From contig JAWKRC010000007.1 in NCBI GenBank assembly GCA_041389825.1, positions 189,093 through 253,092 of the forward strand: 64,000 bases of DNA, read 5' to 3'. Positions 1,596-51,010 of this stretch are shown here, in pieces; positions within the stretch are counted from its first letter, which is position 1; every line of letters starts with the position of its first letter. The translations under genes were made by a program, and so were the position numbers. The notes beneath the pieces were generated by a model. It had not been told where the DNA came from and made no database searches. It saw only the letters and a list, made by a program, of their open reading frames with translations. Origin of the DNA: Polyangiales bacterium. Lineage in GTDB: Bacteria; Myxococcota_A; Polyangia; Polyangiales; Ga0077539.

Positions 1596-1748
1596 TCGGT
1601 CGGTCACGGCGAGGGGTGATATGCGGCGTGGGCGCCGGGGTTCAAGCGGCTGCGACCATCGGCCGCAGCGCGCCGCGTGCGTCACGATGTCGCAAGGGCG
1701 CACGGGGTCGTTGCCCTCGCGGCGGCTTCGTGTGATCCGCAACGGGCG

Positions 1749-3573: not shown

Positions 3574-3598
3574 TGCTCCCGCGACGAGACCCGCCATC

Positions 3599-4549: not shown

Positions 4550-4596
4550 CGAGGGAAGTTCTCGGCCACCCCGCGGCGTTTCGTGTACCGTCCCCG

Positions 4597-5556
4597 ATGC
4601 CTGACGGAGCGACCGCCCCCACCGTGGAACCCGACGCCCTCCTCGCACGCATCCGCGCGGCCCTCTCGGGCGTGATCTCGGGCCGCCCCGACGCGATCGA
4701 GCTCCTCCTCACCGGGGTGCTCTCGGGCGGTCACGTGCTCATCGAAGACGTGCCGGGGGTTGGCAAGACCACCCTCGCCCGCGCCCTCGCGAAGTGCTTC
4801 GACGTGTCGTGCACGCGGGTGCAGTTCACGCCCGACCTCCTGCCGAGCGACATCCTCGGCGCGCAGGTGCTCGACCCCCGCGACGGGAGCTTCGCCTTCC
4901 ACCGCGGGCCGATCTTCACGAGCGTGCTCCTCGCCGACGAGATCAACCGCGCGTCGCCCCGCACGCAGAGCGCGCTCCTCGAGGCGATGAACGAGGGCAG
5001 CGCGACCGTCGACGGCGTGACCCACGCGCTCCCGCGCCCCTTCTTCGTGCTCGCGACGCAGAACCCCATCGAGTCGCAGGGGACGTGGCCGCTGCCCGAC
5101 GCGCAGCTCGACCGCTTCGCCCTGCGCGTGTCGGTGGGCTACCCCTCGCCCGACGCCGAGCTCGCGATGCTCTACGCCCGCCAGCGCGCCGACCCCCTCG
5201 ACCGGGTCGAGTCCTTCGCGACGGGCTCCGACCTCGCGGAGCTGCAGGCCGCGGCGCGCGAGGTCGACGTGAGAGAGCCCGTGGCGCGCTACCTCCTGCG
5301 CGTGGTGACCGCGACGCGCGACCACCCCGAGCTCGCCATGGGGGCCTCTCCGCGCGGGGCGCTGTCGTTCTTTCGCAGCGTGCAGGCCCGGGCGCTCTTG
5401 CAGGGTCGCAAATACGTCACGCCCGACGACGTGCAGGCGCTCGCTGCGCCGGTGCTCGCGCACCGCGTGGCGCTGGCGCCGTCGGCGAAGTACAGCGGCG
5501 CGTCGTCCGACGCGATCGTGCGCGCGCTGGTGGCGGGGGTCGAGGTGCCGGTGTGA
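4597..5556 (+). CDS. MoxR-family AAA+ ATPase
   Basis: Walker A GVPGVGKTTLA, LLADEINRASPRTQSALLEAM, QNPIESQGTWPLPDAQLDRF. ATG at 4597 in frame. Confidence 0.9.
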   Translation: MPDGATAPTVEPDALLARIRAALSGVISGRPDAIELLLTGVLSGGHVLIEDVPGVGKTTLARALAKCFDVSCTRVQFTPDLLPSDILGAQVLDPRDGSFAFHRGPIFTSVLLADEINRASPRTQSALLEAMNEGSATVDGVTHALPRPFFVLATQNPIESQGTWPLPDAQLDRFALRVSVGYPSPDAELAMLYARQRADPLDRVESFATGSDLAELQAAAREVDVREPVARYLLRVVTATRDHPELAMGASPRGALSFFRSVQARALLQGRKYVTPDDVQALAAPVLAHRVALAPSAKYSGASSDAIVRALVAGVEVPV

Positions 5557-36989: not shown

Positions 36990-37985
36990 CTACGCGGCGA
37001 AGATCGCGTCTCCGTCGCTCGCGGTCGCCGCGGCCGTGAGCCAGCGCGTGAGTCGGGCGACGTCTCCCTCGGCGACGACGGCGGCGTGCTGATCGGGCGA
37101 GAGCGCGACGCCACGCGCCTCGCAGAGCGTGAGGATCGCGGCGCTCATCGCGACCTGCGCCGCGTGGAGTTGGCCGCGAACGTCGTCGCGCTCGCGGCGC
37201 GCGTCGTCGCGCTCGCGAGCCGCCTCATCGAGTTGTGATTGCTGCTGGTCGGCCATCGCCTGGAGCCGCGCGACGATCTCCGACGCGTCGGGGACGAGCG
37301 CCTGGTTCGCGTAGAAGCGCAGGCGCGTTCCGACGGCGGCGAGCTCCAACCCGAGGACGGCGGAGCGGAGGTAGCCACCCTGCGGGACGCTGGGCTGGTA
37401 GGTGAGGGCGTCGAGCTCCGCGAGCCTCCACCCGCGGAGCTGGCCGTCGCGGCAATTGAAGCTGAAATACTCGGGGATGCGCCGCCGCGCGTAGTCCCGG
37501 ACGTTCTCGACGAGGTCCTTGTGCTTCTTGCCGAGGTTGCGCACCTCGACGACGACGTCGACGCCTCTGCCCTGCTCGGACACGACCCAGGTCTCGGGTT
37601 CGATGTCGGGGTCGCAGTCCATCACCGCGAGCACGTCGGGGACGATCGCCGGCTCGCCGGGGTAGAGCACGGCGAGCTCGCTCGCGATGAAGACCGCGCG
37701 ACCCGCGCGGCGGAAGTGCCCATCGAGCTCCGCGGCGATCCCGGTCTTGCGCCGCTGGTGGCGCACGCCCTCAGACATCGCCTCGCGGTACTCGTCGAGC
37801 GTGTCGAGGATCCGGTCGATCACCCGCTGCCGCTCGGCGGGGTCGAGCCGCGCCCAGGTCTCCTCATCGGGAAACACCAGCCGAGGGTCATCCCAGAAGC
37901 CGCCAGGGCGCGCGGGCTGAGAGGGTCGCACCGTCGCTCGCGGAGCCAGTACCACCGCGGGAGGTGAAGGTGCGGGCGATGTCAT
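36990..37985 (-). CDS. Uma2-family (DUF820) PD-(D/E)XK endonuclease-like protein with coiled-coil and DUF4351-like C-terminus
   Basis: PDVLAV...GVDVVVEVRN...KHKD...IPEYFSF. C-terminus AILTLCEARGVALSPDQ...LTRWLTAAATA parallels the 12668..13684 C-terminus. Confidence 0.75.
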   Translation of the reverse strand: MTSPAPSPPAVVLAPRATVRPSQPARPGGFWDDPRLVFPDEETWARLDPAERQRVIDRILDTLDEYREAMSEGVRHQRRKTGIAAELDGHFRRAGRAVFIASELAVLYPGEPAIVPDVLAVMDCDPDIEPETWVVSEQGRGVDVVVEVRNLGKKHKDLVENVRDYARRRIPEYFSFNCRDGQLRGWRLAELDALTYQPSVPQGGYLRSAVLGLELAAVGTRLRFYANQALVPDASEIVARLQAMADQQQSQLDEAARERDDARRERDDVRGQLHAAQVAMSAAILTLCEARGVALSPDQHAAVVAEGDVARLTRWLTAAATASDGDAIFAA

Positions 37986-37999
37986 GCGTCCCCCCCGCG

Positions 38000-39039
38000 C
38001 GGCGCTCACCCCCTCGCGAACCTCACGAAGGCTCGTCGCGCGACGCAGGCGACGGAGCATCCCAACGAGGGTCAGGCCCCACGCGGCGAGGCGACGTAGA
38101 CCGACGCGCGCGGAACGCGGCGATGAGGTACGGCGCTTCCAAACCGCTTGCAGTGACAACCTCGCGGTGCAGGCCGTGTACATCCCCAAGCGGGAAGACG
38201 GCGCCCCAGTAAAGCGGGTCGTAGCGGGCGGGGCAACTTGGGCATGCGCCAGACCCCCAGCACGAAGGAGCATCCCGGGATCCGCGGTCGCCGTCGCCCA
38301 CCAGAGCAGGGTGAGCCCCCGCACGAAGGGCAGGACCTGGCCGAGCACCGGAGACGCGGGCGCGGCGGCGACGAGCATCGTGCGGCGAGGGTGGAGATGG
38401 CCGCCGCGCCCATGTTGATCCAGTAGGGGGCGCGAGGTCTGACGGGCTGAGGTGAAGAAGGTGTAGCGGTAGAAGATCAGGCTGATGATCCAGGAGGTAG
38501 GCATTCCCCGCCGAGCCACATGGGCTGAGAGGAGGAGCGGCGGCTGCCACGGAGAAGGTGCGGCGCGAGCGCGCGAGGGTCGCGACGGACTGCGCGGCGA
38601 CTACCGCGACGAGCCATCCGCCGTTGATGCCCTCGGCGAGCGTGGGCTTGGCGTCCTTGACCGTGAGCAGCGCGAGGACTGTGTAGATCGAAGCAGCCCA
38701 CGACGCGCGATCGAGTCAGAGGGCGAGCGCGACGCACGAGTCCGCCGATCACGGGCACTGTGAGCCGAGCACGCAGGTGGCCGCGACGATCGTGAAGAAG
38801 CCGACCGATCGCGCGTGGCTCAACAGGTCGGACACGACCTCGCCGCGGTGTCGCGCGACCCTCACGATCAGGCAGGCCCAGAGGACGACATAGAAGGGGA
38901 CGTTCAGCGCGAAGAGCCCGCGAGCGAGCCCGTGGAGCCCCACGAGGTGACACGCGATCGAGACGATCCCGGTCGCCATCACCAGCGCAAAGTACGCTGG
39001 GTGCATCTTCGCCAGGCCAGAGGGCGCTCTCGCGGTCAT
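38000..39039 (-). pseudogene. TehA/TDT-family (tellurite-resistance/C4-dicarboxylate transporter-like) gene broken by 4 or more frameshifts
   Basis: Fragments MHPAYFALVMATGIVSIACHLVGL, DAKPTLAEGINGGWLVAVVAAQSVA, IISLIFYRYTFF, LPFVRGLTLLWW and DPLYWGAVFPLGMYT lie in three different frames. Confidence 0.55.
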
Positions 39040-39046
39040 CGACGGG

Positions 39047-39277
39047 TCAGAGGTACCGCAACAAGCCCAGGTTGAGCAGCAGGCAGGCCGCGCTCGCGCC
39101 GAGGGCGGGGAAGACCACCGACGCGTCGCCGCCGAGCCAGGCGTTCATCGTCGCGGTGAGGAGCCAGAGCTGGAGCACCACGAGGATCAGCGCGAAGCAC
39201 AGGACGCCATAGACGACAGTGATGCGCCTGACGAGGATCGGTTGCTTGTGCCCCATGGCTACACCGTACCGGGTCAC
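39047..39277 (-). CDS. Small two-TM membrane protein
   Basis: 76-aa ORF, two hydrophobic helices, immediately upstream of the TehA-like pseudogene. Confidence 0.3.
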   Translation of the reverse strand: MTRYGVAMGHKQPILVRRITVVYGVLCFALILVVLQLWLLTATMNAWLGGDASVVFPALGASAACLLLNLGLLRYL

Positions 39278-39356
39278 CTACGCCGACGGCGTGAGCCCGC
39301 TCGCCGTCGACCTCGGGTGATCTTCGGGAGCAGGCGCGGCGGAGGCCGTAGCCACG

Positions 39357-39910
39357 TTGCGCCCCGTGCGAAGGTCCGCTCGCCCTCGTGGCAGGGGCAG
39401 TGCAGCACCCCCTGATCAGCCGCGGGACGACGGCGCACGACAGGTGGGTGCACGCCTGGCTGCGGTACGGCTCATCCTCGGAGAGGCCGGACCACTAGGC
39501 AGGGTCGTGCTCGGTGGGGTACCGAACATCCGGTCGCGCCGACGGGGAGCTCGGAGAGCGACGCGATCGGTGCGCGGGGGCGACGCGCGGCGGCGGCGCA
39601 CGAGCTCCTGCGCCGCGATCCAGCCCTGCCCCGCGACGAAGGCCCCGCTCGTCAGCACGAGGAAGCGCGCGAAGTCGCGCCGCGCGACGAACTGATCCTG
39701 CGCCCAGTCGATGGGGAAGTCCTTGCGCCACCGGGGCTGCTGCGCCCGCGGTCGCCCGTCGGGAGCGACGCTCAGCTCGTCGGGGTCGCGCGCCGACGCG
39801 TAGGGCCCGAACGACGCCGTCGACTCGTCGCTGTCGTACCCGTTGCCGAGCTCTGCGCCCGCGTCGACGGCGGGGTCTCCCTCTCCCAAGCGTCGCGAAT
39901 CAACCGCCAT
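39357..39910 (-). pseudogene. Rieske [2Fe-2S] protein gene with Tat-like anchor, fragmented by 4 or more frame changes and one in-frame TAG
   Basis: [20 protein letters not shown] in frame [35 protein letters not shown] and GVLHCPCHEGERTF sit in alternating frames. Both Rieske boxes (CTHLSC, CPCHEG) are present. Confidence 0.5.
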
Positions 39911-39913
39911 AGC

Positions 39914-40594
39914 TCACACCTCTACCTCGGCGAAGGGGTCGCTCTCCGCCGCCTGCGCCGGGGGGCTGCCCGTCGGCACCACGCGGAGCCGCACCGTGCG
40001 GGGCACGGCGCGCGCCTCCATCGACGCCGTCACGTCGACGTACGCTGGCGGGGCCTCGACCCGCGGCACCATCACGCTCACCTTCGTCTCGATGGTCTGC
40101 TGGCCGAAGCGGAACCGGTTGGTCGGCGTCGACTGCGGACGCAGGTCACGGATCTGCTCTCGCGTGCCGAAGAACAGCGCCTGGCTCGGGCAGACCGTCG
40201 CGCACATCGGCCGCTTGCCCACCGACGTGCGGTCGTAGCACATGTCGCATTTCATCATGAGCTGCTGCGGGGCGTAGAGCTCCGGCACGCCGAAGGGGCA
40301 CGCCATCACGCAGTTGCCGCACGCGATGCACCGCGGCTTGCGCGCGCTCTGCACCACGCCGTCGGGCGTGCGCTTGATCGCGTCGGCCGGGCAGACCTCG
40401 GCGCAGGTCGGCTGCGCGCAGTGCATGCACACCACCGGCACGGTCTGAACGCTGTGGGCGCGGTCGACGTACTCCAGGTGGATCATCGACTCGCCGCGGT
40501 GCGTGTCGCACTCGCTGCACGCCTGCACGCACGACTGACAGCCGATGCAGCGGGTCGGGTCGACGAAGAACTCCATGTGCGCGGGCACGGGCAT
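39914..40594 (-). CDS. 4x[4Fe-4S] ferredoxin-type electron-transfer subunit of a molybdoenzyme
   Basis: Four Cys clusters ([47 protein letters not shown]...CATVCP). No signal peptide. Confidence 0.85.
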
Positions 40595-40613
40595 GGCGGG
40601 CGAGCTCCCTTCG

Positions 40614-42881
40614 TCACTGCTGGGGTTCGAGGCGGGCGGCGTACGCGGGCGGGCCGTCGGCCTTGCGGACACGGCACGCGCAGACCTTGTACTGTGGGAT
40701 CTTGCTGATCGGGTCCTGAGCGGCGACGGTGAGCCGGTTCGCGCTCTTGGGCCCGGCCCAGTGGTAAGGGATGAACACGGTGTCAGGTCGGATGGTGGTG
40801 ACGACCTGCGCCCGGAGGGTGATGTCGCCGCGGAGCGTCTCGCAGACGGTCCAGTCGCCGTCAGAGACGCCGAGCTTCTCGGCGAGGCGCGGGTGGAGTT
40901 CCAAGAGTGGCTCGGGGTACTGCTTCACCAGCGGGCCGATGCGGCGCGTCTGCGTGCCCGACAGGAACTGGCTCACCACGCGCCCCGTCGTGAGGAAGAT
41001 CGGGAACTCTTCGGAGACGTCGTCGACGGGGGCGCGGTACTCTGCGACGTTGAAGCGGGCCTTGCCGTCGGGGAAATAGAACCTCCCCGCGCCCTTCGCG
41101 ACGGGGTTGTAGCTCCCCGGCTCGAAGAGCCGCGGCGTACCCGGGTGATCGGGCGTCGGCGCGCCGGTCCGAGGATCTTCGGCGTAGCAGGGCCAGAACA
41201 CCCCCATCTGCCGCTCGATCTTCTCGTACGTGATGCCGGAGTAGTCCGCGACGCCGCCCTTGCTCGCGACGCGGAGCTCCTCGAAGATCTCGCGGGGGCT
41301 CTCGAAGGTGAACCCGTGGGGTCGGCCGAGGGCGCGCGCGAGGTCTTGCAGGATCACCCAATCGCGGCGCGCCTCGCCGGGGCAGTCGACGGCCTTGTTG
41401 ATCTTGATGACCCTGCCCTCGACCTGCGCGACGACGCCTTCGTCCTCCTCCTGGAGGCTCCCCGGGAGGACGAGGTCGGCGTGGCGCGCGGTGTCGTTGA
41501 GGAAGAAATCGATCGCCGTGTAGAACTCGAGCTTGTCGAGCGCTCGGGTCACGAACTCGTTGTCGGGCAGCGAGACCTTCGGGTTGAAGCAGATGCTGAT
41601 CAGCGCCTTGATCTCGCCGGCGTCGATCTTGCGAAAGAGCTCGTACGCGTCGACGCCCGGGCCCGGGATCTCACTCTCCTCGACGCCCCAGACCTCGGCG
41701 ATGTACCGTCGGTGCTCGGGGTTGGAGATGTCGCGCAGCCCCGGGAGCTGGTCGCACTTCTGCCCGTGCTCGCGCCCGCCCTGGCCGTTGGCCTGCCCCA
41801 CGATGGTGCCGTAGCCGCTGTGGGGCCTCCCGATGCGCCCCGAGGCCAGCACCAGGTTGATCGCGCCGAGCGCGTTCTGCACGCCGTTGGAGTGATGCTC
41901 GATCCCCCGCGCATGGAGGATGAAGCTGGACCTCGCGCCGCCCCAGAGCTCCGCGGCGCGGCGGATCGATCGCTCGGGCACGCCCGTCACCTCGGCGGTG
42001 CGAGCGGGCGACCACGCGCGGCAGTACTCCTCGACCGCGTCGAAGCCCACGGTGTGGTCGTCGATGAACTCTCGGTCGATCGCGCCCTGCTCGATCATCA
42101 GGTGCAGCACGCCCGCGAAGAGGGCGGCGTCGCGGCCGGGGCGCACCGGTAGGTAGAGGTCGCAGGTGCGCGCGATCGGCGTGATCCGCGGGTCTTGCAC
42201 GATCACCTTCGCGCCGCGCTCCCGGGCCTGCCAGACGTAGTTCGTGGTGATCGGGGAGCACTCGGCGACGTTCGAGCCGGCGATCCAGAGGACCTCGGTG
42301 CCGATCATGTCGGCCCACGGGCTGGTCACGCGGTCGATGCCGAAGGCCTTCTTGTTCGCGGCCCCGGCGCTCACCATACAGAGCCGACCGTTGTAGTCGA
42401 TGAAGGGGGTCTTCAAGCAGACCCGCGCGAACTTGCCGAGGAGGTAGGTCTTCTCGGTGGTGAGACTCGCCCCACCGAGCACGGCCACCGAGGCGGGACC
42501 GTGAGCATCCTGCACGCGGCGGATCTCACTCGCCGCGTACGCGATCGCGCCGTCGTAGGCCATCGGGCTGAAGCCTGACTGCGCCGACGGGTCTCGTCGG
42601 ATCGCGGTGAGAAGCCGGTCGGGGTGCGACCCCTGGAGGTAACGCTTGACCCCCTTCGGGCAGAGCATCCCGCGGTTGAAGGGGAACTCCTCCCAAGGCT
42701 CGAAGCCGATGACCTCGTTGTCGCGCACCTTGAGCTGGATGCCGCACTGCTGCCCGCAGAAGCAGCAGTGGGTCTTCACCAGCTTGTCGGGCTCGTCTCC
42801 GGCCCGCCCGCGGACGGAGGGCGACAGGTGAGGGCCGTACCTTCTCGTGATCTCTAGGTCATCGACGGGGATCGTCGCCAT
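40614..42881 (-). CDS. bis-MGD molybdopterin oxidoreductase catalytic subunit, NarB/NasA-like (assimilatory-type nitrate reductase family). No Tat signal
   Basis: N-terminal 4Fe-4S motif [10 protein letters not shown]...LCPKG. MopB core and C-terminal molybdopterin dinucleotide-binding domain. ATG overlaps upstream stop. Confidence 0.9.
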
Positions 42882-42885
42882 CGCC

Positions 42886-43971
42886 TCACTCCGCCTCGGC
42901 GCCGCGCGCCGCGTCTGTGTCGTTGCCGCGCGGCGCGCGCCAGAGAGCGCCCTGCGCGAGGCCGAAGAGCGCCCGGCGGCAGCGCGGGCACACCGACTGG
43001 TAGTGCGCCTCGCCCGCGGGGTCGAGCTCGTAGCGGAACCCGAGGTCGCGCTCGACGCTCGCGAGGTCGCGCACCATCGCCGCCGAGGCGAAGGGCGCGC
43101 CGCAGCGGCGGCACTCGGCCTGCGCGCCAAGCGCGCCAGCGTCCTTGTAGAACGCGACGCCGAGCTGCGCCGGGCGCTGGAAGATATGAAAGAACTTCCC
43201 GAAGGGGAGCCAGAGCAGGGTTACGATGACCGTCACGGCGTGGAGGATCGCCAGGAAGGGGTACGCGTAGCCCTTCATCCACGTGTAGCTGACGGTGAGC
43301 ATCAAGCCCGTGACGGAGATCGCCAGGAGCAGCACGAGGGGCAGGACGTCTTCACCGAACTGCTGCGTCGCGGCGGCGCCCCGGTCGATGAGCCGACGGC
43401 GGAACGCGAGCATCACGCCCGCGACCACGAGGAACGACGCCCAGACGAGGCCGTGAAAGACGATGAAGGCGAGGAGAGAGCTCACCTCGAACTCGCCCGC
43501 GGCGAAGCCGAAGACGTAGGCGCGGTAGGTCTCGATCGCACCGGGCGCGGTCTCGAAATGCACCCACCCCCACACGAGCGGGAAGGTGATCGCCGCGGCG
43601 AGGATGCAGCCCCACATGATGGCCCAGTGCGCCGCGCCGCGGAGCGCGCCGCGGCGGAAGATGAACCGGTTGGCCGCGACCTCGACGACCGCGCGCCGAG
43701 CGAGCTGCCCGAGGTTGGCCGCGAGGCGGCCCGGGGCGAAGAAGGCCCGCCACCCGCGGCGCCAATACATCCGCGTCGGGGGGCGGGCGAGCCACACGGT
43801 GTAGCGGTAGGTGATGCCGAAGGCGGCGAAGAGCGTCGCGAAGGTGTATCCGACGAGCGCCGCGTCGAAGTGCGCGAGGTTGCGCGAACCGACGACGATC
43901 GCGGCCACGAGCGCGGCGGTGACGACGCTCGCCCATGCGACCGCGCGAGCGCGGGGGGACGGTCGATCCAT
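42886..43971 (-). CDS. NarI-like dihaem cytochrome b membrane subunit with C-terminal Cys4 zinc-ribbon extension
   Basis: Five TM helices. RY..W...P motif ([14 protein letters not shown]) like NarI. Tail CRRCGAPF...CPRCRR. The N-terminal 226 residues of the 587-aa ORF are antisense filler. Confidence 0.55.
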
Positions 43972-44061
43972 GACCGCCTGACCATAGACACGGCGCGGAC
44001 TTATCGCGAGAGGAGAACGAGAGGGGTCGACGCGAACGCGGCGCGTGTACACTCCCGCGGG

Positions 44062-44541
44062 ATGTACAAGCGCTTCGCGTTCGAGGGGGATGTCCATGCG
44101 TCGTTGGAGTGCGTGCCGCTCACGGTGCGTCGAAAGCTGGACCTGGCGGGCTTGAAGATCTCGCTCGTCGGGTGGCAGACACTGACCCGCGCCGAGCGCC
44201 TCGCGCTCTGCCACCTCCCGGTCGACGAGGACGACGAGGTCGAGGTCTACCGGGAGGTGTATCGGTCCTTCGCGGACCGGGCGGGCGTGCCGTTGAAGCC
44301 CCTGCCCGACGCGGGGATGTCGACGCGGCCCTGGCTCGCGGCCGCGCCGCCCGAGGCGGTGCGAGCGCGGGTCGCGCTGCTCGGGTGCGAGGTCGACCTC
44401 GACCGCTGGCCCGCCCTCGACGAGGAGTCCCGCTACGCGCTCCTCAAGCTCTCTGACCCGAAGAAGGACGTCTGGAAGCTCCGCGCGGCGCTCGGTGAGC
44501 TCGGGATGCTCCCGGGCGACGGCGTGCGCGCCGATGCGTGA
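44062..44541 (+). CDS. Nitrate-reductase-associated protein (NarM-like, inferred)
   Basis: [41 protein letters not shown] pattern and position (divergent from the reductase, overlapping mobA start). Confidence 0.5.
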
Positions 44542-45164
44542 CGGGGTGGGCCCGCGCCGCGGCGAGGCCCTGCTGCTCGGGGTCTTCGTCGGCGGAGCGT
44601 CGCGGCGGATGGGCGGGCTCCCGAAGGGCTTGCTCGCCGCGCCCGACACGGGCGAGCCGCTGGTGAGCCGACTGCTGCGCGTGGGCCGAGAGGCGGGCTG
44701 CGAGCCGGTGATCGTCGGTCGCCGCGCGGAGTACGCCGCGGTGGCCGCTGGGGTCCCGGTGCTCGACGACGACCCGGCAGAGGTCGGCCCTCTCGGCGGC
44801 CTCCGCGCGCTCCTCGGGTACGCCGGCGACAGGCTGGCCGTCGCCGTCGCGTGCGATATGCCCTTCGTCTCGGCGGGGGCATTGCGGAGGCTGGCGTCGA
44901 CGCCCTCGTGCGCGGCCGTCGTCGCGCCGCGCAGGGGCCCCGGGGCGCCCTACGAGCCCTTCTTCGCGCGCTACGACCCGCCGCGGGTCCTGCCCGCGCT
45001 CGACGCCGTGCTCCGCGGGGGGGGGGCGCTCGCTCCAGGGGCTGCTCTCGCGCTGCGAGGTCGAGGCGCTCTCGCTCGACCTCGAGTCCTCCGCCGCGCT
45101 GACCGACTGGGACACGCCCGACGACGCGCGCGCCGAGGCGGCGGCGCTCACGCCTCGCGGGTGA
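44534..45164 (+). CDS. mobA: Molybdenum cofactor guanylyltransferase MobA; frameshift inside a G9 homopolymer near 45018-45026
   Basis: [34 protein letters not shown]. After the G-run the conserved C-terminus [18 protein letters not shown]...DWDTPDD is in the other frame. Confidence 0.8.
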
Positions 45165-45729
45165 AGCTCGACGCCGGGCGCCGCGCGCTCATCTCGTCGA
45201 CCACCCGCGCGAGCTCCTCGGGCGCCACCCAGCGGCGCAGCGCGGGGAACACCACCTCCTCTTCGAGCGTGAGGTGTACGCCCCAGATCAGGTCGAGCGT
45301 CGCGACGTCGTCAGCCATCCGAGGCGCCAACGCGGGGAGGCGCGTCGGGTCGAAGCTCAGCGATCTCCAGTCTGCGGCGAGCGCCTCGATCAGCCGGTCG
45401 ATAGCCTCGTGCTGCTCGGCGATGGTCGCGACGGCGTCGCGCACCTCGAGCGGCGCCGACGACGCCCTCAACCGCGGACCCACCGAGCTGTCTTCGTCCG
45501 CTGCGTGCAGGGGCATCGCCACGGTGAAATACCGCCGCAGCGCGGTCGCCGCGGACGCCACGTCGGCGGGGGGCGCGTCGAGGGCGCGGGCCAGGCGCGC
45601 CGCCGTCGCCGTGAACGCGCGGATCCGCGCGTGGCAGTCCATCAACAGGTCGACCGCGTCGCGCGCGGGCGCGGCGGTGGTCGGGCGGGCTCTGAGCGTG
45701 TGCAGCATCGACGTCGTGCCTCCGGTCAT
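45148..45729 (-). CDS. Hemerythrin-like (HHE cation-binding) protein
   Basis: DLLMDCHARIR...H...EDSS...EQHEAI...HLTLEEEVVFP His/Glu pattern. Confidence 0.7.
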   Translation of the reverse strand: MTGGTTSMLHTLRARPTTAAPARDAVDLLMDCHARIRAFTATAARLARALDAPPADVASAATALRRYFTVAMPLHAADEDSSVGPRLRASSAPLEVRDAVATIAEQHEAIDRLIEALAADWRSLSFDPTRLPALAPRMADDVATLDLIWGVHLTLEEEVVFPALRRWVAPEELARVVDEMSARRPASSFTREA

Positions 45730-45859
45730 GTTGACCGGTGGGATAGGGCCGACGCGCTGAGGCCGCCTTGAGATTTGTCATGGCCGCCGCCCCGCGCCGC
45801 CCCACGCTCCGGGGAGAGGCCCCTACGCCATGGAACAGCCCCCACACGCGACCGCGCCC

Positions 45860-46570
45860 TCACTCGCCGCGGGTGACCTCCCGCAGTCGGTCGGGGTGGC
45901 GGAGCTCGAAGCCGTCCGCGGTGGTGTCGACCACGCCCTCCCGCCTCCATCGGCTCATCGCCCGGCTGGTGGTCTCGGTGGTGGCTCCGACGAGGCGAGC
46001 GAGTTCATGGCGCGACAGGCGCACGGGCACCACCGCGGAGCCGTCGTCGCGCTCGTCGCCGAAGCGCTCGGTCAGAACGAGGAGCAGCGTCGCGAGGCGC
46101 TGCTCGACCGACCCGGCGCTCATCACCGCGATCTTCTCCTGGAGCGCGCGGGTGTGGTCGAGCAACGCGCGGTTCATCGCCGCCGCGGTGCGCGGGCGGC
46201 GGGGCATCGCTCGGAGCACAGGCGAAGCGTCGACGTAGAGGGCCACGACCACGTCGCTCGCCGCGACGGCGTCGGCGGGGTACGGCGAGGCGCCGAGCAC
46301 GGCGGCGGCGCCGACGCTCTCGCGAGGGCCGAAGAGGCCGACGATGGCCTCTCCGCCGTCGGGCGTGTGTCGCACGACCTTCACCAGCCCCGACCGGATC
46401 AGGGTGAAGCGCGAGGCGACCTCGCCCGCGCGCCAGAGTGGCTCGCCGACTCGCAGCTCGCGGGCGTGCGCGCTCGCCGCGAGCTCGATCACCACATCGT
46501 CATCGACGTCGGAGAAGAGCCGCGAGGCCCGGAGCAGACGCTCGACGCGGGTCTGGGACGACGGCCTCAC
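45860..46570 (-). CDS. Crp/Fnr-family transcriptional regulator
   Basis: cNMP-binding fold (LFSDVDDDVVIELAASA...RSGLVKVV). C-terminal HTH RLSRHELARLVGATTETTSRAMSRWRREGV. GTG start at 46570 chosen. Confidence 0.75.
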   Translation of the reverse strand: MRPSSQTRVERLLRASRLFSDVDDDVVIELAASAHARELRVGEPLWRAGEVASRFTLIRSGLVKVVRHTPDGGEAIVGLFGPRESVGAAAVLGASPYPADAVAASDVVVALYVDASPVLRAMPRRPRTAAAMNRALLDHTRALQEKIAVMSAGSVEQRLATLLLVLTERFGDERDDGSAVVPVRLSRHELARLVGATTETTSRAMSRWRREGVVDTTADGFELRHPDRLREVTRGE

Positions 46571-46650
46571 GGGCGGGGGGTCATAGCGTGACCGGGCGCG
46601 GGTATCCAGCGCCGCAGCGTGGCGTGAAGCCACAGGAGAGGAGCGAAGAC

Positions 46651-46989
46651 ATGACGCGAGAGGCAGAGGAAGCAGCGGTTCCGTCAAAGGCAGCGTTCGG
46701 CAAGAGCGTCGTCGCCGAGCGAGAGGGGCTGAAGGTCGTGAGGTTGACGGTGAGCGTCGGCGGCGCGGTGCCCGAGCACCACGCCAACGTCGACGTCGTG
46801 GCCGTGGTCACCCGCGGCCGGGGGTTCTTCACCGTCGAGGGCGTCGAGCGGGCGATCTCGGCGGGCTCGGTGGTCGAGATGCGGCCGCGGGTTCGCCACT
46901 CGCTCCGCGCTGACGGCGAGGAGCTCGAGCTGGTGGTCGTGCACGCGAGGCTCGCGTCCGACGGCGCCTCGACGCAGTGCGGAGCGTGA
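46651..46989 (+). CDS. Cupin-domain protein
   Basis: ggagaggag RBS. Cupin_2-like GAVPEHHANVDVVAVVTRGRGFFTVEG. Confidence 0.6.
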   Translation: MTREAEEAAVPSKAAFGKSVVAEREGLKVVRLTVSVGGAVPEHHANVDVVAVVTRGRGFFTVEGVERAISAGSVVEMRPRVRHSLRADGEELELVVVHARLASDGASTQCGA

Positions 46990-47055
46990 CCGTGCGGCCG
47001 CGAGGTGAAGAGCCGCCCGGGGGCCCGCCGACGCGTGGGCGTGATCGAGCGGTTC

Positions 47056-47498
47056 ATGACGGCCGACCACGTCAGGCTCGATCGGCTCCTCGATAGCGCC
47101 TGCGCCTCGGCGGGCGCGGTCGATCCGCGCTCTTCGCGGAGTTTCGTGAGGGGCTGCTGCGCCCGCATCGCGATGGAGGAGAAGGTGCTCCTGCCCTACG
47201 CGCGGGAGCGCCGCGGGGCGAACCGTCCCCTGGCGCGCGCGATGCGCCGCGACCACGGCGAGATCGCGGCCCTGCTGGTGCCGTCACCGACGCCCGCGGG
47301 GTGCGACCGGCTGCGCGAGGCGCTCGCGCGGCACAACCCCTCGAAGAAGGTCCCGAGGGCCTCTACGCGACCTGCGATGACCTCGCGGGCGCCGAGGGTG
47401 AGTCGCTCGTCGAGCGCCTGCGGTCACAGCCGCGGGTGCCCGTCGCGCCGCACTACGACGGTCCGCTCCTGCGACCGCGCGGAGCGGGCGGGGCGTAG
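47056..47498 (+). CDS. Second hemerythrin-like protein; apparent frameshift near 47345
   Basis: MTADHVRLDRLLD...IAMEEKVLLPYAR...RRDHGEIAALL. Tail LEEGPEGLYATCDDLAGAEGESLVERL lies in the next frame. Confidence 0.4.
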
Positions 47499-47578
47499 CG
47501 CTCCCTCCGACTTGTTCTCGCCGGGCGCCTTCTCCGCGGCGGGCGGAGCGTTCGTCGGGCCTCGTCGCGGGGGCGCCC

Positions 47579-48097
47579 CTACCGCCGCCGCTCGCGGTCG
47601 GGCGCGACGCCCACGATGCACTCGCCGTTCACCACCGTCGCCGCCTCGTACTTGCTCGGGCACTTCGCGACGATCTCGTCGGCGGCCATCACCCCGTTCG
47701 CCCCCAGCACCCCGCGCACGGTCACCCCCGCGCAATCACGGAACGTGTCCGGCACCACGCCCGAGTAGGTCACCGGAAGCTCTGCCCGGTTGCGGTACAC
47801 CCTGAAGCGGAAGTTGCGCGTCCCCGGCTGGTGCTCGATGGACCCGGGCCGCACCAGGCCCTCGACCCGCAGCACCCGGCCCACCCAGCGCGGCTGCTCC
47901 GTCGGGGTCATCAGCTCGTCGACGTACTTCGAGTACACGAAGGCCGACCCGCGCACCGTGCTCGCGATCACCGCGATCAGCCCCAGCAACATCGCCAGGG
48001 CCACCCAGCGGGCGTAGCCCCGCTTGCGCGGAGGGCGCGCCGCGGGCTCTCGGTACGGGTGCGTCGCGGCTTCGTCAGGGCTCTCTGCGGTCGACAT
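47579..48097 (-). CDS. ccmE: Cytochrome c maturation haem chaperone CcmE, CxxxY variant
   Basis: N-terminal TM anchor, OB-fold (LRVEGLVRPGS...VTYSGVVPDTF). Haem-binding region VAKCPSKYE has Cys where His is usual. Confidence 0.85.
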   Translation of the reverse strand: MSTAESPDEAATHPYREPAARPPRKRGYARWVALAMLLGLIAVIASTVRGSAFVYSKYVDELMTPTEQPRWVGRVLRVEGLVRPGSIEHQPGTRNFRFRVYRNRAELPVTYSGVVPDTFRDCAGVTVRGVLGANGVMAADEIVAKCPSKYEAATVVNGECIVGVAPDRERRR

Positions 48098-48173
48098 CGC
48101 GGACGGCGCGGACACTAGTGCGGGCCCCCGTGGGTGTCCACCGCGGCGGCGGTCTGGCACCATCCCCGCTCCC

Positions 48174-51010
48174 ATGCCCCACTCCCCGAACGCCCTCGCC
48201 TCGCGCGCCCTCGTCGCCCTCGCCCTCGCCGGGTGCAGCAGCAGCGACAACACCCCGCCCCCCGCCGACGCGACGGTGAGCGACATCGCCGCCGACCTCC
48301 CCGACGCCGCCGCGAAGGACGACATCCAAGACGCGACTCCGACGTCGGACTTCCAGCTCCCGCCCTACGACGACCCCTACGCCTGCGAGCCCGCCGCGCA
48401 GGCTCCCCCGCTCGACGAGGGCCTCGACGCGGCGCAGGCCCGCGCCGGGGTCATCACCCGCGAGTCCGAGCTCATCGGCGGAGAGGGCGCCTCGGGCCGC
48501 GTGGGCCACCTCAAGCTCTACAACGACCGCGTGCGCTTCGTGATCCAGGGCCGCACCGGCGACGCGGGGAACGCCAGGGCCACGGGCTACGACCTCTACG
48601 GCGGGAACATCATCGACGCCGACCGCGTCCGCCCCACGGGCGAGCCCGGACAGGACCTCTTCCGCGAGACCTTCCCCGTGGTGGCCTTCCGCGTGTCGAA
48701 CGCCGCCGAGGTGAGGGTCGTGTGCGACGGCTCCAACGGCCGCCCCGCCGCGGTGCGGGTCATCGGCCGCGACGCCTCCACGCGCATCCTGGGCATCCTC
48801 GACAACGTCGCCCGCGAGCGCGACGTGCGGATCATCACCCACTACATCCTCCGCCCCGGCACCGAGGTGCTGGAGGTGCGCACCGAGGTCCAGTCGAACT
48901 TCGGCGGCGCGGTGCCCTCCTCCGTCGCGGGAGACTTCCTCGGCTTCGGCAACGCGCTCACCCTCTTCACCGACGACACGGGCTTCGGCAACGCCTCGCG
49001 CGCGAGCGCGCCGCAGGCCTGGCTCGCGGGCGTGAGCGACCCCGGCGAGGGCGACCGCCGCGTCTCCTACGCCGTCGCCCCCGCGAGCGGCACCATGACC
49101 GTGCCCATCGTCGACGCCTCGGGCACCGTCGGCCTCTACGCCCCCGCCGTCGCCCCCATGGGAGAGGCCACGTCGTTCTCGCGCTATTTCTCCGTGGGCA
49201 CGGGCGACGTCACCTCGGCCGTCGAGCCCCTCTACCGACTGCGCCGCGACCCCTTCGGCGTGGTCACCGGCACCACCACCCCCGGCGCGCTCGTCTACGC
49301 CTACGCTGGAGGCTACGCGGGCGGAGACACCGTAGTCGCTCGGTCGCGCGCCGCGAGCGACGGCCGCTTCGCCTCGCGCTCTCGCCCGGGATGTCTCTGG
49401 TCGCCGTCGACGACGGCCGCGTCGCGGCGCGCCGTCACCGTCGCCGTCACCAACGGAGGCGAGGCCACCGCTAACCCCACTGCGGGCGCCACGGGCACGC
49501 TCGTGCTCGACCTCGCCATCGCGGGAGATGGCGCGCCTGCGCTCGCCCATCAAGGTCAGCCTCGGGGAACGGGCGCCGAAGGCCCCCGACAGCGCGATGG
49601 GGGAGCTCGAGGGAGAGCGCGAGCGCTTCGGTCTTCAGCGCGTGATCTACAGCGTGACGGGGCAGGAGCGCGTGCGCGTGAAGCCGGGTCGGTACCGCGC
49701 GGCGGTGTCGCGCGGCGCGGAGTTCGAGGTCGAGACCGTCGACGTGGAGGTGCCCGCCGACGGAGAGGCCACGCTCACCGCCACCCTCACCCGCTCGGTC
49801 GACACCACGGGCTACGTCGCCGCGGACTTTCACCAGCACACGGTGGGCAGCATCGACTCGCCGCGGAGCCTCTGCGGCCGCGTGGTCGAAGACATCGCCG
49901 AGGGCCTGGAGTGGGCCTCGACCACCGACCACGACAACGTCACCGACTTCATGCCCTGCGTGCGCGAGCTGTCGCTGGAGCGCTGGTTCAACGCCACGCA
50001 AGGCAACGAGATCAGCGTCGTGGGCACGGGGCACTTCAACGCCTACCCGATGCCGGTCGGCGGGGCCGACCCCTTCCGCGCGGTCGGCGCGCAGTACTGG
50101 GCCGACCTCTCGGCGCAGGCGCTCTTCGACCGCATCCGCGCCGAGCCGACGGACCCGATCCTCCACATCTCGCACCCGCGCTCGACGGGGCTGAAGGGCT
50201 ACTTCACCTCGATCGCGCTCGACCCCTTCTCGCTCACCGGGCGGCAGCCCCTCGCGACGGGCTTCGAGGCCATCGAGGTGAACACCGAGGTCGGCGACCC
50301 CGCGGACTACCTCGCCTCGAACGACGCCGCGGCGCGCATGGCCGCGATGCGCGACCCGTCGAGCGTGCCCACCTTGCGCGACTGGTTCTCGATGCTGAAC
50401 CGCGGCGACCACACCTGCGCGCTCGGCAACAGCGACACGCACGGCCGCAACGACGGCTCGGGCTGGCCGCACAACCTCGTGCGCGTGGGCGAGGACCGCC
50501 CCGACCGCGTCGACATCGCCGCGATCCGCACGGCGATCCGCGCGCAGCGGGTGGTGGTGGCGAGCGGCCTCACGGTACGCGTGCGGGTGAACGGCCAGGA
50601 GCGCATGGGCCACACCGAGGTGGTCACGCCCACCGCGGGCGCGGTGGAGCTCGACGTCGAGGTGCAGGCGCCCTCGTGGGTCGACGCGCGCACGCTGGTG
50701 CTCTTCGAGAACGGGCGTCCGCTCGCGCTCACCGACGCGGGCGGCGGGGTCTTCGACGCGCGCGTCGCGACGGAGCGCACGGACCCCTTCACGCTCGCCC
50801 TCGGGATGGACTCGCCGGGACGCGCGGGCGCCGTGCGCTTCAGGGCGCGGGTGCGGGTGCGCCCGACGCGCGACAGCCACTACGTGGCGCTGGCGCGCGG
50901 CGGGCCGCTCTCCCCCGTCGGGAGCGGAGACGCGATCTCGTACACCAACCCCGTCTACGTCGACGTCGACGGCGGCGGGGTGGAGGCTGACGCCCTGAGC
51001 GGAGGCTGGC
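48174..51010 (+). CDS. Large secreted lipoprotein with C-terminal PHP-domain (CehA/McbA-like) metallohydrolase; 3 frame changes clustered at 49385-49550. 3' end approximate
   Basis: ATG 48174, lipobox LALAGCSSS. PHP motifs ADFHQHTVGS, TDHDN, ISHPRS, EVNTE, GNSDTHG. Confidence 0.55.

What the first reader, a model, noticed from the sequence alone, without database searches (positions are those of the whole stretch)
39357..45164. Unusual molybdoenzyme locus: NarB/NasA-like reductase wired to a NarI-like cytochrome b (with Zn-ribbon tail), a polyferredoxin and a Rieske protein
The gene order on the minus strand is NarI-like dihaem b subunit, then bis-MGD catalytic subunit of the assimilatory NarB/NasA type (N-terminal CxxCxxxC...CP, no Tat signal), then a 4x[4Fe-4S] subunit (also no signal), then a Tat/anchor-type Rieske gene. 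Divergently there is a NarM-like nitrate-reductase-associated protein and mobA, the guanylyltransferase that makes the MGD cofactor. Known systems pair NarB-type enzymes with soluble ferredoxin or NADH donors. They pair NarI with the much larger NarG/NarH. A cytoplasm-facing, quinol-linked NarB-like reductase with an extra Rieske centre and a Cys4 ribbon fused to the cytochrome b would be a new electron-transfer architecture. The substrate need not be nitrate.
Basis: partly seen in the sequence, partly recalled or inferred. Interest (0 to 1): 0.75.

Follow-up and report, generated by a model that had tools for sequence, protein, structure and literature searches.

The report
Membrane-wired NasC-type nitrate reductase module
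The locus encodes a conserved but uncharacterised enzyme complex, found in hundreds of soil bacterial species, that joins an "assimilatory-type" nitrate reductase to a membrane cytochrome b, a four-cluster iron-sulfur protein and an exported Rieske protein, so it is probably an undescribed way of linking nitrate reduction to the respiratory membrane.

Summary
The minus strand carries a NarI-fold membrane protein with a C-terminal Cys4 domain (42886-43971), a 755-aa NasC-like Mo-bisMGD subunit (40614-42881), a 4x[4Fe-4S] protein (39914-40594) and a Tat-type Rieske gene. The operon continues beyond the finding with DUF6755 (39047-39277) and a SLAC1/TehA-type anion transporter (~37960-39039).

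In this window the Rieske, transporter and mobA genes are broken by small indels. These are probably assembly errors, because the frame-corrected protein sequence is still conserved.

The order membrane-Mo-FeS-Rieske-DUF6755 recurs in essentially all 80 loci examined, out of 322 species genomes in at least six phyla. These include cultured Sorangium, Deinococcus and Brevibacillus. The module always sits next to either a NarK or a SLAC1-type transporter, and some membrane subunits are fused to NarK.

The catalytic subunit forms its own clade next to Gram-positive-type NasC, not Fdh. It has the Cys-Met Mo-ligand motif.

I found no paper describing the module.

Most likely it is a cytoplasm-facing, membrane-coupled nitrate reductase. 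The role of the Rieske protein and the number of haems are unresolved.

The parts
42886..43971 (-). Membrane subunit: a six-helix NarI-fold protein, presumed to be a cytochrome b, with a cytoplasmic C-terminal Cys4 domain (C287xxC290...C328PxC331) that resembles a rubredoxin or zinc ribbon.
40614..42881 (-). Catalytic Mo-bisMGD subunit of NasC/NarB type. FS0 is C39/C42/C46/C74, the Mo ligand is Cys168 followed by Met169, and Arg370 lies in GGRE. It has a 37-aa N-terminal extension and no Tat signal.
   Evidence: It is 79-88% identical to copies in Sorangium, Gemmatimonadales and Vicinamibacterales.
39914..40594 (-). Four-cluster iron-sulfur subunit, 4x[4Fe-4S], with Cys groups at 16/19/22/26, 56/59/64/68, 89/92/95/99 and 116/119/131/135. 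It has no signal peptide.
   Evidence: PF13247 scores E = 2e-19. It also resembles DmsB, HybA and FdnH.
39278..39910 (-). Rieske [2Fe-2S] subunit gene. It encodes a charged N-terminal extension, an RRDF Tat-like motif, a weakly hydrophobic segment, and a Rieske domain with CTHLSC and CPCHEG. In this window it is disrupted by about 9 frameshifting indels and one stop.
   Evidence: Intact 218-aa orthologues are present in L001, L003 and L005. The cluster-binding and disulfide Cys motifs are present in 66 of 68 relatives. The best solved match is the Thermus bc-complex Rieske protein, and AioB aligns from its Tat region onward.
39047..39277 (-). DUF6755 small membrane protein with two predicted helices. 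It is intact and is probably a subunit of the complex.
   Evidence: PF20540 scores E = 4e-27. It sits directly downstream of the Rieske gene in 63 of 80 loci and in Deinococcus.
37960..39039 (-). Anion transporter gene of the SLAC1/TehA (TDT) family. In this window it is heavily frameshifted.
   Evidence: tblastn against the Gemmatimonadales orthologue splits over two frames. The orthologue hits TIGR00816. The gene is present downstream in 41 of 80 loci, and in this set it does not co-occur with a NarK-type MFS gene, which lies next to the module (upstream in all but L079) in 30 of 80 loci.
44062..44541 (+). NarM-like nitrate-reductase-associated protein, divergently transcribed.
   Evidence: PF09655 scores E = 2e-32, and TIGR02664 scores 107.6 bits against a cut-off of 110. 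It is adjacent also in L005 but not in the other loci.
44534..45164 (+). MobA-like molybdenum cofactor guanylyltransferase. It has one frameshift near 45030.
   Evidence: PF12804 scores E = 6e-24. The C-terminal DWDTPDD...stop is in the +1 frame and ends at 45164.
45148..45729 (-). Hemerythrin-domain protein. It may be associated with the module through an NO or O2 response.
   Evidence: PF01814 scores E = 2e-13. Hemerythrin or ScdA genes lie near the module in many other loci.
45860..46687 (-). Crp/Fnr-family transcription regulator, a candidate regulator of the module.
   Evidence: It hits PF00027 and PF13545. Crp/Fnr genes also lie next to the module in L038, L049, L062, L063 and Brevibacillus. 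The Brevibacillus copy has a C-terminal Cys cluster of the Bacillus Fnr type.

Best explanation
The locus encodes a five-subunit membrane-bound nitrate reductase plus a dedicated anion transporter.

**Proposed architecture**
- A cytoplasmic Mo-bisMGD subunit of NasC/NarB type (Cys ligand) reduces nitrate to nitrite.
- It is fed through its FS0 cluster by a cytoplasmic four-cluster iron-sulfur subunit.
- That subunit docks on the cytoplasmic face of a six-helix NarI-fold haem-b protein, probably at its conserved Cys4 domain.
- A Rieske [2Fe-2S] domain, exported by Tat and held or delivered by its signal segment, sits on the outer face of the same membrane protein, together with the small DUF6755 protein.

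**Proposed electron flow**
Electrons enter from the quinol pool at the outer face, at a site formed by the NarI-like subunit and possibly the Rieske head. They cross the membrane through the haem(s) and reach nitrate in the cytoplasm. As in NarGHI, nitrate reduction would then be electrogenic through a redox loop. Nitrate is imported and nitrite exported by the adjacent SLAC1/TehA-type or NarK-type transporter.

**Shown versus inferred**
- Shown: gene content, folds, motifs, conservation, synteny and gene fusions.
- Inferred: cofactor occupancy, topology, quinol as the donor, the direction of electron flow, and the physiological role. I lean towards a dissimilatory or redox-balancing role rather than the standard assimilatory one.
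For: **Nitrate as substrate**
- NasC is the best-scoring NCBIfam model.
- The motif NGR[LF]CM...FGIDR is shared only with nirB-linked NasC of the Gram-positive/Deinococcus type. The catalytic His and Arg of Fdh are absent.
- NarM and MobA are adjacent.
- Every locus has either a NarK or a SLAC1/TDT transporter.
- Some relatives carry NarK fused to the membrane subunit.

**Membrane coupling**
- The membrane subunit has the NarI fold.
- H115, H244 and H262 are conserved, with NarI-like 18-residue spacing between H244 and H262.
- The order membrane-Mo-FeS-Rieske-DUF6755 is kept in essentially all 80 loci examined, out of 322 species genomes.

**Cytoplasmic Mo and FeS subunits**
- Neither has a signal sequence or a predicted membrane helix.
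- The NarK fusion fixes the topology as N-in and C-in, which places the conserved Cys4 domain in the cytoplasm.
- A nitrate transporter would not be needed for a periplasmic enzyme.

**Periplasmic Rieske domain**
- The RR[DE]F motif is followed by a weakly hydrophobic segment.
- The Brevibacillus copy has a canonical Tat signal, DRRGFMKT.
- The disulfide Cys of high-potential Rieske proteins are present in 66 of 68 copies.
- The closest solved relatives are the Thermus bc-complex Rieske, b6f Rieske and AioB.

**Not the standard assimilatory enzyme**
- No nirA or nirBD gene lies within 7 kb in any of the 80 loci.
- The D. wulumuqiensis plasmid pDrdI carries both this module and a canonical nirDB-nasA-MFS-cobA cluster.
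- Neighbouring genes include a globin, ScdA, a NorR-like activator, YwiC and NosZ.
- In Brevibacillus the module sits beside narK and an fnr-type gene.
Against: - No experiment exists. No subunit interaction or cofactor has been demonstrated.
- The fourth haem ligand expected from NarI is not conserved across the family. H138 and H173 are conserved only in the close clade. EtfD shows that a NarI-like domain can bind a single haem near the cytoplasm. That would leave no obvious wire to an outer Rieske centre.
- A periplasmic Rieske centre has no obvious role in a simple quinol-to-nitrate chain.
- Sorangium is known to grow with nitrate as nitrogen source (my own knowledge). An assimilatory role is therefore not excluded.
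- Deep branches of the NJ tree are unsupported, with 3% bootstrap for the grouping with Gram-positive NasC.
- The NasC model score (750) is below its equivalog cut-off (1100).
- In this window three genes of the locus are frameshifted.
Confidence: 0.6

Rival explanations
1. The machine is the same, but its role is assimilatory. A quinol-fed nitrate reductase supplies nitrite for ammonium assimilation, replacing the ferredoxin-, flavodoxin- or NADH-dependent Nas enzymes.
For: - The catalytic subunit is nearest to NasC.
- NarM, known from cyanobacterial NarB systems, is adjacent.
- Public pipelines label the protein as the assimilatory nitrate reductase catalytic subunit.
- Many hosts are aerobic soil heterotrophs.
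Against: - No nirA, nirBD or siroheme genes lie next to the module in 80 loci.
- It coexists with a complete canonical nas-nir cluster on one Deinococcus plasmid.
- Its neighbours are NO-stress, NosZ and Fnr-type genes.
Confidence: 0.2
2. The enzyme is periplasmic. The Mo and FeS subunits, which lack signals, are exported by riding on the Tat signal of the Rieske subunit, as AioA does with AioB. This would make a Nap-like enzyme anchored to the NarI-like protein.
For: - The Rieske protein has a Tat-type motif and aligns with AioB from the signal region onward.
- The genes are tightly linked.
Against: - Nitrate/nitrite transporters are always adjacent and are even fused to the membrane subunit.
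- The conserved Cys4 domain of the membrane subunit is cytoplasmic.
- As far as I know, no example exists of a Rieske signal carrying both an alpha and a four-cluster beta subunit.
Confidence: 0.08
3. The substrate is different. The Mo enzyme acts on another oxyanion or on formate (for example chlorate, selenate or tellurite), or it runs in reverse as a nitrite oxidase.
For: - The NasC model score is below the equivalog cut-off.
- The best solved sequence matches are formate dehydrogenases, because no Nas structure is in the PDB copy searched.
- TDT-family transporters include tellurite and sulfite exporters (family name; the rest is my own knowledge).
Against: - It has the Cys-Met motif, the GGRE Arg and the GIDR motif shared with NasC. 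It lacks the Fdh His and Arg.
- NarK-family transporters and NarK fusions accompany it.
- NarM is adjacent.
- Moving electrons outward for nitrite oxidation would work against the membrane potential.
Confidence: 0.1
4. In this particular genome the module is decaying. The Rieske, transporter and mobA genes are true pseudogenes, and the complex is not functional here.
For: - About 9 frameshifting indels fall in 265 bp of the Rieske gene, about 20 in the transporter gene and one in mobA. None falls in the roughly 4 kb of the membrane, Mo and FeS genes.
- I found no evidence of frameshifts elsewhere in the window. The overlapping ORFs at 1620-5556 turned out to be separate genes.
Against: - DNA identity to L005 is no lower in the broken parts (77% and 76%) than in the intact Rieske N-terminal half or DUF6755 (75% and 73%).
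- After frame correction all functional motifs and long identical peptide runs remain.
- Thirty independent indels without extra substitutions is not how pseudogenes decay.
- The indels are mostly 1-2 nt deletions and occur in patches, as in imperfectly polished assemblies.
Confidence: 0.2

Closest known systems
NarGHI respiratory nitrate reductase (E. coli; PDB 1Q16)
   Same: Both have three tiers: a cytoplasmic Mo subunit, a four-cluster iron-sulfur subunit and a NarI-fold membrane subunit. Both have a NarK partner. Both are expected to form a redox loop with nitrate reduced in the cytoplasm.
   Different: The catalytic subunit here is 755 aa, of Nas/Nap/Fdh type, with a Cys ligand and an all-Cys FS0. 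NarG is about 1240 aa with an Asp ligand and a His-Cys3 FS0. The narG model scores 50 bits against a cut-off of 1084, and narH scores 34 against 524. The membrane subunit here has six helices, an outer beta-sheet insert and a C-terminal Cys4 domain. Only three of the four haem His are conserved. The module has extra Rieske and DUF6755 subunits and no NarJ.
Assimilatory nitrate reductases NasC/NasA/NarB
   Same: They share the catalytic-subunit type: FS0 motif CxxCxxxC...C, the Cys-Met Mo-ligand motif and the GGRE Arg. NasC is the nearest model and the nearest clade. NarM and MobA accompany the gene, as in cyanobacteria. In Paracoccus, NasC also receives electrons from a Rieske-type protein, NasG.
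   Different: Known Nas enzymes are soluble and are fed by ferredoxin, flavodoxin or NAD(P)H modules. They are linked to nirA or nirBD. Here the partners are a four-cluster protein, a NarI-fold membrane protein and a Tat-type Rieske protein of the bc-complex/AioB kind, not the NirD kind. There is no nir linkage. The score is below the NasC equivalog cut-off.
Haloarchaeal pNarGH with NarB (Rieske) and NarC (dihaem cytochrome b), and the Caldithrix Nap locus with Rieske/cytochrome b genes
   Same: In each case a nitrate reductase locus carries a Rieske protein and a b-type cytochrome in place of the usual quinol dehydrogenase.
   Different: In those systems the Mo subunit faces outward (Tat signal on NarG or NapA). 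Their cytochrome b is homologous to the bc1 type and is explicitly not a NarI homologue. Here the Mo subunit lacks a signal and the cytochrome has the NarI fold.
NarI-like domains joined to cytoplasmic iron-sulfur modules: EtfD, HdrED, DsrMK, TcuB and QmoC
   Different: Those proteins use CCG or ferredoxin domains and serve thiol, ETF or organic-acid chemistry. EtfD binds one haem and reduces menaquinone. None of them is partnered with a Mo enzyme or a Rieske protein.
Arsenite oxidase AioAB
   Same: It pairs a Mo-bisPGD enzyme with a Tat-signal Rieske subunit. The Rieske sequence here aligns with AioB, including the signal region.
   Different: AioA has a [3Fe-4S] cluster and no protein ligand to Mo. 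The whole enzyme is periplasmic, and it has no four-cluster or membrane subunit. The arsenite_ox_L model scores only 107 bits against a cut-off of 359.

Membership tests
NarGHI (type II DMSO-reductase-family respiratory nitrate reductase) | A NarG-type alpha subunit of about 1200 aa, with an Asp Mo ligand and FS0 bound by HxxxCxxxC...C. | tested here: not met
   The subunit is 755 aa. TIGR01580 narG scores 50 bits against a cut-off of 1084. FS0 is CxxCxxxC...C, and the Mo ligand motif is RLC168M.
NarGHI (type II DMSO-reductase-family respiratory nitrate reductase) | A NarI gamma subunit with five helices and four His binding two b haems (H56, H66, H187 and H205 in E. coli). | tested here: inconclusive
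NarGHI (type II DMSO-reductase-family respiratory nitrate reductase) | A NarJ chaperone gene in the operon. | tested here: not met
   No NarJ-like gene is present in the window locus or among the conserved neighbours in 80 loci.
Assimilatory nitrate reductase NasC/NasA/NarB | A Mo-bisMGD subunit with N-terminal CxxCxxxC...C, a Cys Mo ligand followed by Met, and no export signal. | tested here: met
   The residues are C39/C42/C46/C74, C168-M169 and R370 in GGRE. There is no hydrophobic N-terminal segment.
Assimilatory nitrate reductase NasC/NasA/NarB | A score above the curated equivalog cut-off of a Nas model. | tested here: not met
   NF047855 NasC scores 750 bits against a cut-off of 1100. 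Haloarchaeal NasA scores 336 against 1000.
Assimilatory nitrate reductase NasC/NasA/NarB | A soluble enzyme with a ferredoxin, flavodoxin or NAD(P)H donor, linked genomically to an assimilatory nitrite reductase. | tested here: not met
   The partners are FeS, Rieske and NarI-like subunits in all loci. No nirA or nirBD gene lies within 7 kb. A separate canonical nas-nir cluster lies on the same Deinococcus plasmid.
Periplasmic nitrate reductase Nap | A twin-arginine signal on NapA, with NapB, NapC or NapGH partners and NapD. | tested here: not met
   The Mo subunit has no signal. The NapA models score 230-236 bits against cut-offs above 900. No nap accessory genes are present.
Formate dehydrogenase (FdhF/FdhA type) | Sec or Cys followed by His at the Mo site, and the catalytic Arg in RGQNN. 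| tested here: not met
   The protein has Met after Cys168, and Val replaces the Arg (alignment with 7QV7 FdhF; motif table). FdhF forms a separate clade with 97% support. Fdh-alpha scores 529 bits against a cut-off of 666.
Rieske/cytochrome b complexes (bc1, b6f, haloarchaeal NarBC) | A Tat-targeted Rieske subunit with CxHxxC...CxCH cluster and disulfide motifs. | tested here: met
   CTHLxC and CPCH are present in 66 of 68 orthologues, and the RR[DE]F motif lies before the hydrophobic segment. Brevibacillus has a canonical Tat signal. The best solved match is the Thermus bc-complex Rieske protein. In the window itself the gene is frameshifted.
Rieske/cytochrome b complexes (bc1, b6f, haloarchaeal NarBC) | A cytochrome b of the bc1/b6 family. 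| tested here: not met
   The membrane subunit has the NarI fold and matches no cytochrome b family model.
Arsenite oxidase AioAB | An AioA-type large subunit with [3Fe-4S] and no Cys or Ser Mo ligand, forming a periplasmic heterodimer with the Rieske subunit. | tested here: not met
   arsenite_ox_L scores 107 bits against a cut-off of 359. A Cys ligand motif is present, and the module has extra FeS and membrane subunits.

The most novel reading that the evidence does not exclude
The complex may be a hybrid of a Rieske/cytochrome-b quinol oxidase and a nitrate reductase. Quinol would be oxidised at an outer-face site between the NarI-fold protein and the Rieske head, in a bifurcated reaction like that of the bc1 Qo site. 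One electron would go through the Rieske centre to periplasmic acceptors (cytochrome c or cupredoxin, and on to Nir, Nor, Nos or an oxidase). The other would cross the membrane through haem b and the iron-sulfur chain to cytoplasmic nitrate. A variant is that the Rieske centre is the entry point for periplasmic donors, making a cytochrome c:nitrate transmembrane wire. Either version would be a new class of energy-conserving respiratory complex, widespread in soil Myxococcota, Acidobacteriota, Gemmatimonadota, Deinococcota and Bacillota.
Probability: 0.15. Interest if true: 0.9.

Novelty: new variant of a known kind. Interest (0 to 1): 0.72.

Why it matters
**Gene surveys.** Nitrate reduction is usually attributed to three enzyme systems: Nar, Nap and Nas. 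This module would be a fourth arrangement, a Nas-type catalytic subunit plugged into a Nar-like membrane chain with an added exported Rieske centre. It is not rare. More than 6,700 membrane-subunit homologues were found in metagenome data. It occurs in 322 species-level genomes, many from dominant soil phyla.

**Annotation.** Pipelines currently label its parts "assimilatory nitrate reductase", "nitrite reductase", "MFS transporter" or "hypothetical". Soil nitrogen-cycle gene surveys therefore probably book it as assimilation. If it is respiratory or energy-conserving, those budgets and the list of nitrate-respiring taxa need revision.

**Testability.** It is directly testable, because cultured strains carry it: Brevibacillus laterosporus, several Deinococcus species and Sorangium cellulosum.

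**Bioenergetics.** A NarI-fold protein working with a Rieske protein is not a known combination.

Tried and rejected
1. **PDB sequence search with the membrane subunit.** The profile search found nothing relevant.
2. **First structure model.** The first AF2 model, built from 20 close homologues, was poor (pLDDT 63), and its fold search was meaningless. A model from 44 diverse homologues solved this.
3. **Window-wide assembly errors.** I first took overlapping same-strand ORFs and GC3 phase switches as signs of frameshifts across the whole window. Pfam showed that the four ORFs at 1620-5556 are separate genes: a response regulator, a histidine kinase, a cation efflux protein and a MoxR ATPase. 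That argument is withdrawn. The case for assembly error rests only on the substitution and conservation pattern.
4. **Locus search with the diverse alignment.** A2 was used instead, so the 80 loci sample only the close clade (over 69% identity). More distant members came from the plasmid collection.
5. **Regulatory signals.** The 43972-44061 intergenic region has no FNR-box match. There are no Rfam hits such as a Moco riboswitch and no promoter-like sites.
6. **AlphaFold database fold library.** The afdb50 library was unavailable.
7. **Literature.** Eight full-text searches found no description of the module: DUF6755; NasC/Rieske/quinol; NarB/NarI-like; Deinococcus; soil phyla; and others. The library lacks most subscription journals, so absence is not proof.
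8. **The Cys4 domain as a degenerate ferredoxin.** One NarK-fused relative gave a weak HycF-like model hit, and one Foldseek hit was to HycF. The sequences show the same CxxC...CPxC pattern and not ferredoxin motifs, so the metal remains unknown.

Full report
**What is in the window**

The window is about 73% G+C. It is identical to a contig of a Polyangiales MAG, since P0001 and P0121 match at 100%.

On the minus strand, tightly packed or overlapping, lie the following genes.
- A 361-aa membrane protein (42886-43971).
- A 755-aa molybdopterin oxidoreductase (40614-42881).
- A 226-aa protein with four ferredoxin-type Cys groups (39914-40594).
- A Rieske gene (about 39278-39910).
- A DUF6755 gene (39047-39277).
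- A SLAC1/TehA-family transporter gene (about 37960-39039).

Divergently transcribed are a NarM-like gene (44062-44541) and mobA (44534-45164). Beyond them lie a hemerythrin gene and a Crp/Fnr regulator gene.

**Integrity in this window**

Relative to the closest relative (L005), the membrane, Mo, FeS and DUF6755 genes have no frameshifting indel. The C-terminal half of the Rieske gene has about nine, the transporter gene about twenty and mobA one. The Rieske cluster motifs CTHLSC and CPCHEG consequently lie in different frames.

DNA identity is no lower in the broken stretches. After frame correction all functional motifs and long identical peptide runs are retained. I therefore think these are assembly or polishing errors rather than decay (about 80:20).

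An earlier impression that frameshifts are common across the window was tested and withdrawn.

**Conservation**

The Mo subunit has thousands of homologues. The 120 best are 82-100% identical and come from Sorangium, Polyangiaceae, Kofleriaceae and Gemmatimonadales.

The membrane subunit has more than 6,700 homologues and 1,263 clusters at 50% identity. It has no Pfam family and is named "hypothetical" or, wrongly, "MFS transporter".

A scan of one genome per species found 322 loci. In the 80 fetched, membrane-Mo-FeS-Rieske-DUF6755 is present in that order wherever the contig is long enough. The loci come from Myxococcota, Acidobacteriota (Vicinamibacterales), Planctomycetota and Actinomycetota, with some MAG labels doubtful. 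A Gemmatimonadales copy came from the separate look-up.

A SLAC1/TDT transporter follows the module in 41 loci. A NarK-type MFS lies next to it (upstream in all but L079) in 30 other loci, with no overlap between the two sets.

More distant copies occur in cultured strains.
- Deinococcus wulumuqiensis pDrdI and three other Deinococcus plasmids carry copies 57% identical, followed by an annotated nitrate/nitrite transporter.
- Brevibacillus laterosporus carries a copy 45% identical, next to narK and an fnr-type regulator with a C-terminal Cys cluster.

Chance juxtaposition is excluded.

**The catalytic subunit**

The best curated model is NasC, at 750 bits against a cut-off of 1100. Fdh-alpha scores 529, NapA 236 and NarG 50.

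No Nas structure is in the PDB copy, so the best solved sequence matches are formate dehydrogenases, followed by Desulfovibrio NapA.

- The alignment shows Cys168-Met169 where Fdh has Cys/Sec-His.
- It shows Val where Fdh has the catalytic Arg.
- It shows the GGRE Arg typical of Nap and Nas.

A neighbour-joining tree with annotated references gives the following picture.
- The family forms a clade with 100% support, whose sister is the Brevibacillus copy (99%).
- It lies nearest the nirB-linked NasC of Paenibacillus, Mycobacterium and Deinococcus grandis, with which it uniquely shares NGR[LF]CM...FGIDR.
- FdhF (97%) and proteobacterial NasA/NasC (100%) are separate clades.
- The deep nodes are unresolved.

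**The membrane subunit**

The protein has six helices. NarK-fused relatives and the charge distribution both place the N- and C-termini in the cytoplasm.

- H244 and H262 are 18 residues apart within LPFGKFFH. This matches NarI H187/H205 (NarI numbering from my own knowledge).
- H115 sits at the cytoplasmic end of helix 3.
- These three His and the four Cys of the C-terminal domain (CxxC...CPxC) are conserved in at least 90% of diverse members.
- H138 and H173, on the outer side, are conserved only in the close clade.

One bis-His haem near the cytoplasm is therefore well supported. A second, outer haem is plausible, because H244 is invariant, but it is not proven. EtfD's NarI-like domain binds only one haem.

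**The Rieske subunit**

Orthologues are 172-218 aa.
- They carry a charged N-terminal extension with a conserved W[KR]xDFxxDW motif, then RR[DE]F and a weakly hydrophobic segment.
- The Rieske domain has both cluster-binding and disulfide Cys in 66 of 68 copies.
- Brevibacillus has a textbook Tat signal.
- The closest solved relatives are the Thermus bc-complex Rieske, b6f Rieske and AioB.

The N-terminal tail is too charged to be translocated. The domain is therefore most likely exported by Tat to the outer face.

**How it most likely works**

The Mo and FeS subunits have no signals. The Cys4 domain is cytoplasmic, and a nitrate/nitrite transporter is always attached. I therefore place nitrate reduction in the cytoplasm. 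The inferred chain is: membrane donor, then haem(s) b, then the Cys4 domain and four [4Fe-4S] clusters, then FS0, then Mo.

With quinol oxidised at the outer face, this is a Nar-like redox loop built from a Nas-type enzyme.

What the outer Rieske centre does is the main open question. It could be co-oxidant of quinol, an exit to periplasmic acceptors, or an entry from them.

Several observations argue that this is not the standard assimilatory enzyme, though assimilation is not excluded.
- No nirA or nirBD gene lies nearby.
- It coexists with a canonical nirDB-nasA-cobA cluster on one Deinococcus plasmid.
- Neighbouring genes include a globin, ScdA, a NorR-like activator, YwiC and NosZ.
- The Brevibacillus copy lies in a narK-fnr setting.

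**Comparison with known systems**

The system works like NarGHI but fails the Nar membership tests for the alpha and beta subunits. Its catalytic subunit is Nas-like but falls below the curated cut-off and has different partners. It is neither Nap nor Fdh.

Rieske plus cytochrome b genes in nitrate reductase loci are known for haloarchaeal pNar (NarB/NarC) and Caldithrix Nap. There, however, the Mo subunit faces outward and the cytochrome b is of bc1 type. Paracoccus NasC uses a soluble NirD-type Rieske protein, NasG.

No paper describing this module was found in eight full-text searches.

**Verdict**

The finding is real and conserved. It is best described as a new variant of membrane-bound nitrate reductase. 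Function and mechanism are inferred, not shown.

Noticed in passing
window 37960-39600 and about 45030: Small indels, mostly 1-2 nt deletions, cluster in the Rieske C-terminal half, the SLAC1-like gene and mobA. The adjacent membrane, Mo, FeS and DUF6755 genes have none. The frame-corrected protein sequence remains conserved, which suggests patchy assembly or polishing error.
   Followed up: yes
L005-L084 (genome contigs); P0001-P0120: The Mo subunit is 79-88% identical, and the membrane subunit 71-85% identical, between Myxococcota, Acidobacteriota, Gemmatimonadota and Planctomycetota. That is unusually high for different phyla. It points to recent horizontal spread of the whole module, very strong constraint, or some mis-binned MAG contigs (for example loci labelled Sphingobium or Bifidobacteriaceae).
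   Followed up: partly
P0140, P0163, P0166, P0172 and L085 5889-7001; P0002, P0030: Public annotation calls the NarI-fold subunit an "MFS transporter", probably by transfer from NarK-fused relatives. It calls the Sorangium catalytic subunit "nitrite reductase". JGI labels it "assimilatory nitrate reductase catalytic subunit".
   Followed up: partly
L037 187-2184 (also L033, L035, L044): A NosZ-like nitrous oxide reductase gene (CuA-type C-terminus) and a cytochrome c gene lie about 5 kb upstream of the module in several Myxococcales loci, together with ScdA-like and YwiC-like genes.
   Followed up: no
L098 3642-5719: In Brevibacillus laterosporus the module is preceded by narK and a divergent Crp/Fnr gene ending in CCDDCPNEIC. 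This resembles the C-terminal [4Fe-4S] site of Bacillus Fnr and mirrors the narK-fnr neighbourhood of narGHJI in B. subtilis (the latter from my own knowledge).
   Followed up: partly
window 45148-48325: Beside the locus lies a run of small genes that could sense oxygen or NO: a hemerythrin (45148-45729, -), a Crp/Fnr regulator (45860-46687, -), a cupin (46681-46989, +) and a second hemerythrin-domain ORF (47005-47400, +). A CcmE cytochrome c maturation gene follows (47579-48325, -).
   Followed up: partly
window 36990-38519 (-): This 509-aa ORF is an artefact. Its C-terminal part is a Uma2-family putative restriction endonuclease (36990-37901). Its N-terminal part reads through frameshifted remains of the SLAC1-like gene.
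   Followed up: partly
window 42886-43971, residues 130-162 of the protein: The most conserved motif of the membrane subunit, ITFPL[VF][WF]GW at the outer end of helix 3, is followed by a three-stranded beta-sheet on the outer face (residues 137-162 in the model). It is a candidate quinol site or Rieske docking site.
   Followed up: no
L001 10288-10968; L003 10271-10921; window 39914-40594: The FeS subunit ends in a conserved DPFAEVE[VI] peptide, and the Mo subunit begins with a conserved MA(T/K)(I/L)PVDDLxITRxFGPxLS extension. These may be docking or chaperone-binding motifs. Both are absent or different in Brevibacillus.
   Followed up: no
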